Shown here piece after piece: positions 55,991-58,581 of a DNA stretch of 64,000 nucleotides (positions are counted from its first letter, which is position 1; each line of letters starts with the position of its first letter). A program made the position numbers. Origin of the DNA: Escherichia coli (lineage in GTDB: Bacteria > Pseudomonadota > Gammaproteobacteria > Enterobacterales > Enterobacteriaceae); the NCBI RefSeq assembly GCF_041248615.1, contig NZ_CP158426.1; one strand, written 5' to 3'.

Positions 55991-58581
55991 TAACATCCTG
56001 TTATCAGGGCTATTTACGCCCTGATTGTCTTTTGTTACTTGCGTAACAATTCATTATTTTTATCAATTATCCTATAGCATTCATGAGGATTATCGCTAAA
56101 CTATGCGGACTTGGAAATTTCCGTCAGTTAGGGTAATGATGAGAGTAGAAAATAATAATGTTTCTGGGCAAAACCATGACCCGGAACAGATTGATTTGAT
56201 TGATTTACTAGTGCAGTTGTGGCGTGGCAAGATGACAATCATCATTTCCGTCATTGTGGCTATTGCCCTGGCTATTGGATATTTGGCAGTAGCGAAGGAG
56301 AAATGGACGTCAACAGCAATTATCACTCAGCCCGATGTGGGGCAAATTGCTGGCTATAACAATGCCATGAATGTTATCTATGGTCAGGCTGCACCGAAAG
56401 TATCGGATTTGCAGGAGACGTTAATTGGTCGCTTCAGTTCTGCCTTCTCTGCATTAGCAGAAACGCTGGATAATCAGGAAGAACCAGAAAAACTTACCAT
56501 CGAACCTTCTGTTAAGAACCAGCAATTACCATTGACTGTTTCTTATGTTGGGCAAACTGCAGAGGGCGCACAAATGAAGTTGGCCCAATACATTCAGCAA
56601 GTTGACGATAAAGTGAATCAAGAGTTAGAAAAGGATCTCAAGGACAACATTGCTCTGGGACGGAAAAACTTGCAGGACTCTTTAAGAACGCAGGAAGTGG
56701 TTGCGCAGGAGCAGAAAGATCTGCGTATCCGTCAGATTCAGGAAGCGTTGCAGTATGCGAATCAGGCGCAGGTGACAAAACCGCAAATTCAACAGACTGG
56801 CGAAGATATCACACAAGATACGTTGTTCCTTTTGGGGAGCGAAGCGCTGGAGTCGATGATTAAGCATGAAGCGACCCGTCCGTTAGTGTTCTCACCAAAC
56901 TACTATCAGACTCGTCAAAACCTGCTGGATATCGAAAGCTTAAAAGTTGATGATCTTGATATTCATGCTTACCGTTATGTGATGAAACCGACGTTACCTA
57001 TTCGTCGCGATAGCCCGAAAAAGGCAATTACCTTGATTCTGGCGGTGCTGCTGGGCGGCATGGTTGGCGCGGGGATTGTGCTGGGGCGTAACGCTCTGCG
57101 TAATTACAACGCGAAGTAATCTTTTCGGTTTTAAAGAAAACGGGCAGGGTGGTGACACCTTGCCCGTTTTTTTTGCCGGATGCGACAACAACATCGCATC
57201 CGCTCAGCACGCCACTCACTGATGCCGTTTACGCAGGTTCTCAATTACCGTCGTTAAATCCAGATCCTGATCCTGCAACAACACCAGCAGGTGATACATC
57301 AAGTCAGATGCTTCGTTGGTCAGTTCAAAGCGGTCATGCACCGTTGCGGCCAGTGCGGTTTCCACGCCTTCTTCGCCCACTTTCTGCGCAATGCGTTTGG
57401 TGCCGCTGGCATACAGTTTGGCTGTGTAAGAGGTTTCCGGGTCGGCAGATTTGCGTTCGGCGAGCAGTTGTTCCAGTTGATACAGGAACAGCCACTGGTG
57501 AGCGGTGTCGCCGAAGCAGCTGCTGGTACCTTTGTGGCAGGTTGGCCCGATTGGATTTGCCAGCACCAGTAACGTGTCGTTGTCGCAGTCCGGAGCAATA
57601 CTCACCACATTGAGAAAATTGCCCGACGTTTCGCCTTTGGTCCACAGTCGCTGTTTAGTGCGCGAGAAGAAGGTGACATTGCCGCTTTCGATGGTTTTGT
57701 CCAGAGCTTCCGGGGTCATATAGCCCAGCATTAACACTTCGCCAGATACCGCGTGTTGCACAATCACCGGCATAAGTCCGTCGGTTTTTTCCCAGTCCAG
57801 TTCGCGACGTTGTTGTTCTGTTAACATATCCTGATCTCCACGCCCTGTGTTGCCAGGTACGCTTTTAATTCACCAATATTGATTATTTGTTTGTGGAATA
57901 CGGAAGCTGCCAGCGCGCCGTCAACGTCGGCATCGCGGAAGGCTTCCAGGAAGTGTTCCATGGTGCCCGCGCCACCGGAGGCAATTAGCGGGACGTGGCA
58001 AACTTCACGCACTTTTTTCAGTTGTTCGAGGTCGTAACCGTTACGCACGCCGTCCTGATTCATCATGTTGAGGACGATTTCTCCGGCACCGCGTTTTTGC
58101 ACTTCCTGTACCCAGTCGAGCGTTTCCCACTGAGTGACGCGAGTGCGGCTTTCGTCGCCGGTATATTGATTCACATGATATTTACCGGTTTCGCCGTCGT
58201 ACCAGGTATCAATACCGACCACAATACACTGCACGCCAAAGCGATCCGCCAGGCGAGTGATTAATGTCGGCTCCGCCAGCGCAGGGGAGTTGATGGAAAT
58301 TTTATCCGCGCCAAAGGAAAGAATTTTCGCGGCATCTTCCAGAGACTTAATCCCACCCGCCACGCAGAACGGAATGTCGATCACTTCCGCCACGCGAGAT
58401 ACCCAGCTTTTATCTACCACACGGCCATCGCTGGAAGCGGTGATATCGTAGAACACCAGTTCGTCAGCGCCTTCTTCAGCGTAGCGTTTTGCCAGCGGCA
58501 CGATATCGCCAATGATTTCATGGTTGCGAAACTGTACGCCTTTCACCACCTGACCATCACGAACGTCGAGACATGGAATTA

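What the first reader, a model, noticed from the sequence alone, without database searches (positions are those of the whole stretch)
57139..57202. Shared bidirectional terminator plus a second hairpin between convergent wzz and hisI
Seen in sequence: a GC-rich stem (57141-57166) is flanked by A/T-rich sequence on one side and T8 on the other, so it can terminate both wzz (+) and the his operon (-). It is followed immediately by a second hairpin 'cggatgcga...tcgcatccg' (57177-57202). The 96-bp convergent gap is therefore almost entirely structured.
Basis: seen in the sequence. Interest (0 to 1): 0.15.

Follow-up and report, generated by a model that had tools for sequence, protein, structure and literature searches.

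The report
Shared wzzB/his terminator plus REP-like hairpin
The gap between the E. coli genes wzzB and hisIE holds the long-known two-way transcription terminator of the his operon plus a small palindrome built from the head of a common bacterial repeat (REP), so it is ordinary.

Summary
The window is E. coli. wzzB (+) stops at 57119, hisIE (-) stops at 57216, and the gap is 96 bp.

Hairpin 1 (57140-57167) has an A-tract on one side and T8 on the other. It is a classical bidirectional intrinsic terminator.
- In K-12, published Term-seq and SMRT-Cappable-seq tables put the wzzB RNA 3' end on the 4th-5th T of this run. That is 6-7 nt before hairpin 2.
- Twelve other Enterobacterales species with convergent hisI/wzz keep one A-run/hairpin/T-run with different stem sequences.
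- Termination in the his direction is inferred from this symmetry and from the 1985 Salmonella work. I found no mapped his 3' end.

Hairpin 2 (57177-57202) is not a terminator, because no U-tract follows it on either strand.
- Its left arm is the REP head GCCGGATGCGA.
- About 23% of E. coli genomes carry an 89-bp two-REP BIME exactly here, bounded by the direct repeat CCGGATGCGA.
- It was found only in E. coli among the species sampled and is single-copy.
- It is transcribed only in the his 3' UTR, 13 nt after the stop codon.
- One lineage (clone D i2, Nissle 1917; roughly 10% of genomes) keeps the stem through two compensatory changes.

Its function is unproven. Verdict: a real but already known kind of feature, of low interest.

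The parts
56139..57119 (+). wzzB (O-antigen chain-length determinant) CDS. The start is placed by the K-12 b2027 N-terminus MRVENNN. Stop codon TAA at 57117-57119.
   Evidence: ORF list. RefSeq annotation of identical or near-identical E. coli loci.
57133..57140 (.). A-tract AAAGAAAA. On the - strand it is read as the U-rich tail UUUUCUUU that follows the hairpin in his mRNA.
   Evidence: Sequence. Folds.
57140..57167 (.). Hairpin 1, the stem-loop of the shared bidirectional intrinsic terminator. Free energy is -23.4 kcal/mol as wzzB RNA and -18.0 kcal/mol as his RNA, where it has a 1x1 C.A mismatch.
   Evidence: Conserved across E. coli, with one compensatory change at the basal pair.
57167..57174 (+). 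T8 run, the U-tract of the wzzB terminator. The 3' ends mapped in K-12 correspond to window positions 57170-57171.
   Evidence: Term-seq 3' end at K-12 2097270 (-). SMRT-Cappable-seq transcript 2098331->2097269 containing b2027 only. Coordinates transferred through.
57175..57185 (+). REP head motif GCCGGATGCGA. Bases 57177-57185 form the left arm of hairpin 2. Bases 57176-57185 are the copy of the 10-bp direct repeat CCGGATGCGA retained in this short allele; in long alleles two copies bound the 89-bp BIME indel.
57177..57202 (-). Hairpin 2, a single-copy REP-head-derived palindrome. It is transcribed only as part of the his operon 3' UTR and starts 13 nt after the hisIE stop. Free energy is -17.4 kcal/mol as his RNA. 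No U-tract follows it on either strand.
   Evidence: Single copy per genome. Two compensatory pair changes in clone D i2 and BRG214; the exact variant is also found in Nissle 1917 and others, about 540 genomes at >=95% identity. Absent in 12 other species.
57216..57827 (-). hisIE CDS, the last gene of the his operon. The stop codon TGA is read from 57218 to 57216.

Best explanation
Hairpin 1 with its A-tract and T8 is one Rho-independent terminator used from both sides.
- wzzB direction: RNA polymerase transcribes the GC-rich hairpin and releases the RNA in the U8 tract. This is shown for K-12.
- his direction: polymerase transcribes the complementary hairpin and releases in UUUUCUUU. This is inferred.

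Hairpin 2 is a separate thing.
- It is a palindrome whose left arm is the REP head GCCGGATGCGA.
- It sits where many E. coli strains carry a two-REP BIME.
- The window has the short allele. The 89-bp difference is bounded by the direct repeat CCGGATGCGA. This fits deletion between two directly repeated REP heads, with the long form probably older because E. albertii has it.
- wzzB RNA ends before hairpin 2, so it is transcribed only in the his 3' UTR, between the hisIE stop and the terminator.
- If it does anything, the most likely role is the usual one of REP-type stem-loops: an internal barrier to 3'-to-5' exonucleases that protects the hisIE end of the mRNA.
- Because it starts 13 nt from the stop codon, it might also affect termination of HisIE translation. 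These functional steps are inference only.
For: wzzB 3' end, mapped in K-12:
- Term-seq gives 2097270 (-) in LB at OD 0.4 and in M63 (Adams 2021 supplement 1).
- SMRT-Cappable-seq gives a wzzB-only transcript 2098331->2097269 at two places in the table (Yan 2018 supplement 3).
- Both positions lie on the 4th-5th T of the run, upstream of hairpin 2.

Cross-species comparison:
- 12 other Enterobacterales species with convergent hisI/wzz have gaps of 38-116 bp.
- Each gap has a single A-run/GC-hairpin/T-run with a different stem sequence and no counterpart of hairpin 2.
- One search shows the sequences for Citrobacter, Enterobacter, Pseudocitrobacter and Rahnella, among others.

The Salmonella his terminator is cited as a strong, convergently functional terminator. 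This is Carlomagno 1985, quoted in PMC3148252 and PMC1590033.

Hairpin 2 and the BIME:
- The long allele reads terminator, then Y-REP, a 16-nt linker and an inverted Z-REP, then hairpin 2.
- It is present in 1234 of 5426 genomes, and its REP matches a median of 5 places per genome.
- Hairpin 2 as a whole matches one place per genome.
- Two compensatory changes (A-U to G-C and C-G to U-A) are seen in clone D i2 and BRG214. The exact variant is also present in Nissle 1917 and others, about 540 genomes at >=95% identity.
- The uncompensated hybrid stem folds at only -2.6 kcal/mol, against -13 to -15 for the natural stems.
Against: - No his-strand 3' end near K-12 2097300 is listed in either table. 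This is weak evidence. The tables list dominant peaks only, and the his attenuator 3' end at 2090132 dominates in all three conditions.
- The simple terminator scan called hairpin 1 on the + strand only, because the - strand stem has an internal mismatch.
- Beyond its 11-nt head, hairpin 2 resembles a REP only weakly. Tail-only shuffles give p about 0.03-0.06 for the K-12 haplotype and no significance for the window haplotype.
- Hairpin 2 is degraded in E. albertii, where 3 of 9 pairs are lost.
- It carries single mismatches in some E. coli strains, which argues against strong selection.
- Compensatory changes in a palindrome can also arise by templated (quasipalindrome) mutation, without any selection on RNA.
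Confidence: 0.8

Rival explanations
1. Hairpin 2 is a second, tandem or backup terminator that catches read-through from wzzB or from his.
For: It is a stable stem directly next to the terminator. A Rho-dependent termination region antisense to hisF/hisI exists in K-12 (Adams 2021 supplement 2), so some transcription on the wzzB strand does cross the area.
Against: On the + strand hairpin 2 is followed by CUCAGCACGCC, and on the - strand by GCAAAAAAAA. Neither is a U-tract. The terminator scan did not call it. Published wzzB 3' ends lie before it, and none is listed after it. It is absent from 12 other species that have the same convergent gene pair.
Confidence: 0.05
2. Hairpin 2 is a selected REP-type translational regulator. 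Because it starts 13 nt after the hisIE stop codon, it stalls terminating ribosomes and lowers HisIE output, as reported for REPs closer than 16 nt to a stop codon.
For: The distance of 13 nt is read from the sequence. The rule is quoted from Liang, Rudd and Deutscher 2015 in PMC12306157. Stem pairing is kept through two compensatory changes.
Against: Hairpin 2 fails the REP definition, being single-copy and lacking the conserved tail. The stem is degraded in E. albertii and imperfect in some E. coli. In long alleles the distance and the hairpin are unchanged, so the polymorphism gives no natural contrast. No expression data exist.
Confidence: 0.12
3. Hairpin 2 is a functionless relic of REP/BIME turnover. 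Its pairing persists only because palindromes are homogenised by templated repair or because too little time has passed.
For: It shares the REP head and marks an indel bounded by a direct repeat. It was found only in E. coli among the species sampled. It is decayed in E. albertii. Scattered single mismatches occur in E. coli. Its energy z-score is modest.
Against: A major lineage carries two double-sided compensatory changes. The stem is perfect in most sampled strains, while the neighbouring 13-nt spacer has diverged into two haplotypes.
Confidence: 0.35
4. Termination here is driven mainly by head-on collisions of converging RNA polymerases, the bidirectional terminator class of Ju et al. 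2019, and not by intrinsic hairpin/U-tract release.
For: The genes are convergent with a shared hairpin. This class is described as pervasive in E. coli (quoted in bioRxiv 10.1101/2022.10.23.513370).
Against: That class is described as not resembling intrinsic terminators. This site has a textbook hairpin with U8 on one strand and UUUUCUUU on the other. wzzB 3' ends map sharply in the U-tract even in LB, where his is attenuated and few opposing polymerases are expected.
Confidence: 0.08

Closest known systems
Bidirectional Rho-independent terminator at the end of the his operon (Carlomagno, Riccio and Bruni 1985, J Bacteriol 163:362, Salmonella typhimurium)
   Same: Same genomic position, after the last his gene and facing a convergent gene. 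Same design: a GC hairpin between an A-run and a T-run, so that it reads as hairpin plus U-tract on both strands.
   Different: That work was done in Salmonella. I could neither read the paper nor fetch the Salmonella sequence, so sequence homology of the stem is untested. The stems of the other genera I did see differ from the E. coli stem.
REP elements and BIMEs of E. coli (Y, Z1 and Z2 REPs; bacterial interspersed mosaic elements)
   Same: The left arm of hairpin 2 equals the REP head GCCGGATGCGA. It lies in a transcribed extragenic 3' region. A true BIME (a Y-type and a Z-type REP in inverse orientation) sits beside it in about 23% of genomes.
   Different: Hairpin 2 is a near-perfect palindrome of the head alone. 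It lacks the REP body and the GGCCTAC tail in this window, and it occurs once per genome.
REP stem-loops as 3'-exonuclease barriers and stop-codon-proximal translational modulators (Higgins and co-workers; Liang, Rudd and Deutscher 2015)
   Same: A stable stem-loop in a 3' UTR, 13 nt from the stop codon and upstream of the terminator.
   Different: No experimental data exist for this hairpin, and it is not a canonical REP.

Membership tests
Intrinsic (Rho-independent) terminator, bidirectional type | A GC-rich hairpin immediately followed by a U-tract on the + strand (wzzB) | tested here: met
   A 12-bp stem of -23.4 kcal/mol followed by U8.
Intrinsic (Rho-independent) terminator, bidirectional type | A GC-rich hairpin immediately followed by a U-tract on the - strand (his) | tested here: met
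   A stem of -18.0 kcal/mol with one C.A mismatch, followed by UUUUCUUU. The simple scan did not call it because of the mismatch.
Intrinsic (Rho-independent) terminator, bidirectional type | RNA 3' ends fall in the U-tract in vivo, wzzB strand | tested here: met
   Orthologous K-12 site: Term-seq gives 2097270 (-) and SMRT-Cappable-seq gives a transcription end at 2097269. This strain itself was not tested.
Intrinsic (Rho-independent) terminator, bidirectional type | RNA 3' ends fall in the U-tract in vivo, his strand | tested here: inconclusive
   No + strand 3' end near K-12 2097300 appears in the two tables. The tables hold dominant peaks only, and the his operon was largely attenuated.
Intrinsic (Rho-independent) terminator, bidirectional type | Termination independent of Rho | not testable with these tools
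   This needs in vitro transcription or bicyclomycin data at this site.
Intrinsic (Rho-independent) terminator, bidirectional type | Location between convergent genes, with the architecture conserved in relatives | tested here: met
   12 species, each with one A-run/hairpin/T-run in the hisI-wzz gap.
REP (repetitive extragenic palindromic) element | Conserved head GCC(G/T)GATGCG | tested here: met
   GCCGGATGCG at 57175-57184. It is identical to the head of the neighbouring Y-REP in long alleles.
REP (repetitive extragenic palindromic) element | REP body and conserved tail (TTATC(C/A)GGCCTAC) | tested here: not met
   The window has TCGCATCCGCTCAGC. Alignment beyond the head is not significant for the window haplotype and only p about 0.03-0.06 for the K-12 haplotype.
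REP (repetitive extragenic palindromic) element | Dispersed in many copies per genome | tested here: not met
   Hairpin 2 matches a median of 1 place per genome. The REP of the long-allele insert matches a median of 5 places.
REP-mediated control of translation termination (Liang et al. 2015) | Stem-loop fewer than 16 nt downstream of the stop codon | tested here: met
   13 nt lie between the hisIE stop (57216) and the stem (57202). The rule is quoted in PMC12306157.
REP-mediated control of translation termination (Liang et al. 2015) | Reduced protein output or ribosome stalling that depends on the stem | not testable with these tools
   This needs reporter or ribosome-profiling experiments.

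The most novel reading that the evidence does not exclude
Hairpin 2 is not a passive REP relic. It is a selected element of the his operon 3' UTR, found only in E. coli among the species sampled, whose stem is kept by compensatory evolution. It tunes hisIE expression, either by blocking 3' exonucleases or by stalling ribosomes at the nearby stop codon. The presence or absence of the BIME would then create natural expression alleles.
Probability: 0.15. Interest if true: 0.3.

Novelty: already known. Interest (0 to 1): 0.1.

Why it matters
It matters little beyond annotation.

The result confirms that the wzzB/his boundary is insulated by one two-way terminator. This is relevant because the boundary is a recombination junction of the O-antigen locus. 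It also shows that the 'second hairpin' is a footprint of REP/BIME turnover and not regulatory machinery.

The locus offers a tidy natural series for anyone who wants to test what REP-like stem-loops do in a 3' UTR. The series has four alleles: no BIME, a full BIME, a partly deleted BIME, and a stem with compensatory changes.

Tried and rejected
- Rfam scan of 56800-57500 at E<=10. Only sub-threshold chance hits were found, the best being 17-21 bits against gathering scores of 50-200. One was naRNA4 at 17.9 bits against a gathering score of 59.5. There is no known RNA family here.
- K-12 RefSeq annotation. No repeat or terminator feature lies in the gap. No REP feature is shown anywhere in the 49 kb fetched either, so this silence is uninformative.
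- Papers not held in the library: Carlomagno 1985 (PMC219122), Ju 2019 (PMC6814526) and Liang 2015. They are cited only through other papers' reference lists and text, or from my own knowledge.
- Supplements with nothing usable: Dar and Sorek 2018, the 3'-UTR valves paper, TERMITe, Nanopore E. coli, RepRanger and RIL-seq.
- Treating hairpin 2 as a full degenerate REP. I rejected this as a membership claim after the tail-shuffle test and the copy-number test.
- Hairpin 2 as a terminator. I rejected this because no U-tract follows it on either strand.
- Salmonella comparison. The single genome-contig scan returned 80 loci without Salmonella, so homology of the E. coli stem with the experimentally studied Salmonella stem is untested.

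Full report
**What is there.** The window is E. coli. A 551-bp query around the site is 100% identical to strain WP4-S18-ESBL-07, and 5331 of 5426 complete E. coli genomes match it, with wzzB and hisIE annotated under the match.
- wzzB (+) ends with TAA at 57117-57119.
- hisIE (-) ends with TGA, read from 57218 to 57216.
- The gap 57120-57215 is 96 bp.

Hairpin 1 pairs 57140-57151 with 57156-57167 around the loop GTGA.
- As wzzB RNA it has 12 pairs, one of them G.U, at -23.4 kcal/mol.
- As his RNA the G.U becomes a C.A mismatch, and the energy is -18.0 kcal/mol.
- AAAGAAAA (57133-57140) lies on one side and T8 (57167-57174) on the other.

Hairpin 2 pairs CGGATGCGA (57177-57185) with TCGCATCCG (57194-57202).
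- As his RNA two extra pairs form, giving 11 bp and -17.4 kcal/mol.

**Is it more than chance?**

| Region | Strand | z-score vs dinucleotide shuffles |
|---|---|---|
| Whole gap | + | -7.9 |
| Whole gap | - | -4.0 |
| Hairpin 1 half | + | -6.7 |
| Hairpin 1 half | - | -5.6 |
| Hairpin 2 alone | - | -2.1 (7 of 200 shuffles as good) |

By energy alone hairpin 2 is unremarkable, and its case rests on comparative evidence. The two hairpins with their tracts cover 68 of 96 nt, so 'almost entirely structured' is somewhat generous.

**Hairpin 1 is the shared terminator.**
- Adams et al. 2021 (PMC7815308, supplement 1) list a Term-seq 3' end at 2097270 on the minus strand in LB at OD 0.4 and in M63. 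The printed flanking sequence is this terminator.
- Yan et al. 2018 (PMC6131387, supplement 3) list a full-length transcript 2098331->2097269 that contains b2027 (wzzB) alone, at two places in the table.
- Using the K-12 sequence, these positions are the 4th and 5th T of the K-12 T7 run. That corresponds to window 57170-57171.
- wzzB is therefore monocistronic here, and its RNA ends 6-7 nt before hairpin 2 begins.

For the his strand I found no listed 3' end near K-12 2097300.
- This is weak negative evidence, because both tables keep dominant ends only.
- The his attenuator end at 2090132 is listed in all three conditions, which shows that most his transcription stopped in the leader.

Termination in the his direction therefore rests on three things.
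- The design: a hairpin followed by UUUUCUUU.
[quoted passage not shown] I could verify it only through citations, one of which uses the Salmonella his terminator as a 'strong transcription terminator'. The paper itself is not held.
- Comparative anatomy, described next.

**Comparative anatomy.** A scan of one genome per species with HisIE returned 80 loci.
- In 12 species other than E. coli, wzz lies convergent directly after hisI, with gaps of 38-116 bp.
- Every such gap holds a single A-run/GC-hairpin/T-run. Stems include ACCGGGC..GCCCGGT, GGCCGC..GCGGCC and GCCGCC..GGCGGC, and none resembles the E. coli stem.
- Structure and tracts are conserved while sequence is not. That is what a two-way terminator under functional constraint should look like.
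- None of these species has a counterpart of hairpin 2.

**Hairpin 2 is REP-derived.** Its left arm, with the two preceding bases, is GCCGGATGCGA, the head of E. coli REP elements.
- In 1234 of 5426 genomes the gap is about 185 bp instead of 96.
- After the T8 these strains read GCCGGATGCGATGCTGGCGCATCTTATCCGGCCTAC (a Y-type REP), then 16 nt, then TGTAGGCACGATAAGCTTGCGCATCGGGC (an inverted Z-type REP), then TATGGCT, then CCGGATGCGAcaacaacaTCGCATCCG (hairpin 2).
- The first REP of this insert matches a median of 5 places per genome, so it is a true dispersed repeat.
- The alignment shows that the 89-bp difference is bounded by the direct repeat CCGGATGCGA.
- Intermediate alleles exist: 171 bp with part of the Y-REP deleted, and 182 bp.
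- E. albertii carries the long form.
- I therefore infer that the window's short allele arose by deletion between two directly repeated REP heads. Recombination across this O-antigen junction makes the polarity uncertain.

**Hairpin 2 is not itself a REP by definition.**
- The whole palindrome occurs once per genome.
- Beyond the head its similarity to REPs is weak. Tail-only shuffles give p about 0.03-0.06 for the K-12 haplotype and no significance for the window haplotype.

**Is hairpin 2 maintained?**
- Among 8 aligned alleles, every cell of its 9 pairs is a standard pair on the + strand.
- Two pairs change on both sides in clone D i2 (A-U to G-C and C-G to U-A). BRG214 carries the same changes.
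- The exact variant is also present in Nissle 1917 and others. About 540 genomes match it at >=95% identity.
- A stem built from one standard arm and one variant arm folds at only -2.6 kcal/mol, against -13 to -15 for the natural stems.

Against strong selection:
- K-12 has a wobble or mismatch at the loop-closing pair.
- Two other strains carry single mismatches.
- E. albertii has lost 3 of the 9 pairs.
- Templated mutation within palindromes can also produce such paired changes.

**How it most likely works.**
- Hairpin 1 terminates wzzB transcription in the U8 tract. This is shown in K-12.
- Hairpin 1 terminates his transcription in UUUUCUUU. This is inferred.
- Hairpin 2 has no U-tract after it on either strand, so it is not a terminator.
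- Hairpin 2 is transcribed only in the his 3' UTR, 13 nt after the stop codon and 8 nt (an A8 run) before the terminator stem.
- The likeliest role, if any, is that of REP-type stem-loops: a second barrier to 3' exonucleases.
- REPs closer than 16 nt to a stop codon have been reported to lower translation (Liang et al. 2015, as quoted in PMC12306157). The spacing fits, but nothing else supports this reading here.
- A plain relic remains about as likely as a selected function.

**Comparison with what is known, and verdict.**
- The terminator is the classical bidirectional his terminator, and its wzzB-side 3' end is already in public tables.
- REP/BIME copy-number polymorphism is a well-known phenomenon.
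- The specific description of hairpin 2 may not be in print. That description covers the REP-head palindrome, the boundary of a BIME indel, and one compensated lineage. It is a small annotation point.
- Novelty: already known. Interest: about 0.1.

Noticed in passing
L003 (E. coli EC45) about 1720-2020, corresponding to window 57120 onward: In EC45 the wzzB terminator is followed by a degenerate BIME, a degenerate hairpin 2 and a remnant of about 110 bp of the hisI 3' end. After that come AT-rich DNA and a manC-type gene. A second polysaccharide cluster therefore sits between wzzB and his, and the junction is duplicated.
   Followed up: partly
window about 56197 (K-12 2098243, wzzB strand); also K-12 2098289 and 2097849: Published Term-seq lists strong 3' ends inside the 5' part of the wzzB ORF in K-12. 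This hints at premature termination or processing within wzzB.
   Followed up: no
window about 57808 (K-12 2096632, wzzB strand), antisense to hisF/hisIE: Adams 2021 supplement 2 lists a Rho termination region here with a Rho score of 3.85. Some antisense transcription therefore crosses hisIE, either as read-through of the wzzB terminator or from an internal antisense promoter.
   Followed up: no
window 57203-57215: The 13-nt spacer between hairpin 2 and the hisIE stop occurs as two haplotypes, CTCAGCACGCCAC and CTTACCCCGCAAC. They are mosaic with respect to BIME presence, which indicates recombination breakpoints inside the gap.
   Followed up: partly
window 56003-56025: A terminator-like hairpin with a T-rich tail lies just after ugd and upstream of wzzB. 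This is consistent with wzzB having its own promoter; the K-12 transcription start at 2098331 is 30 nt upstream of the ATG.
   Followed up: no
window 12464, 18753 and 5566 (- strand): Canonical REP elements occur elsewhere in the window: Z2-type, Y-type and a short form. At 18689-18762 a REP head faces an inverted Y-REP.
   Followed up: no
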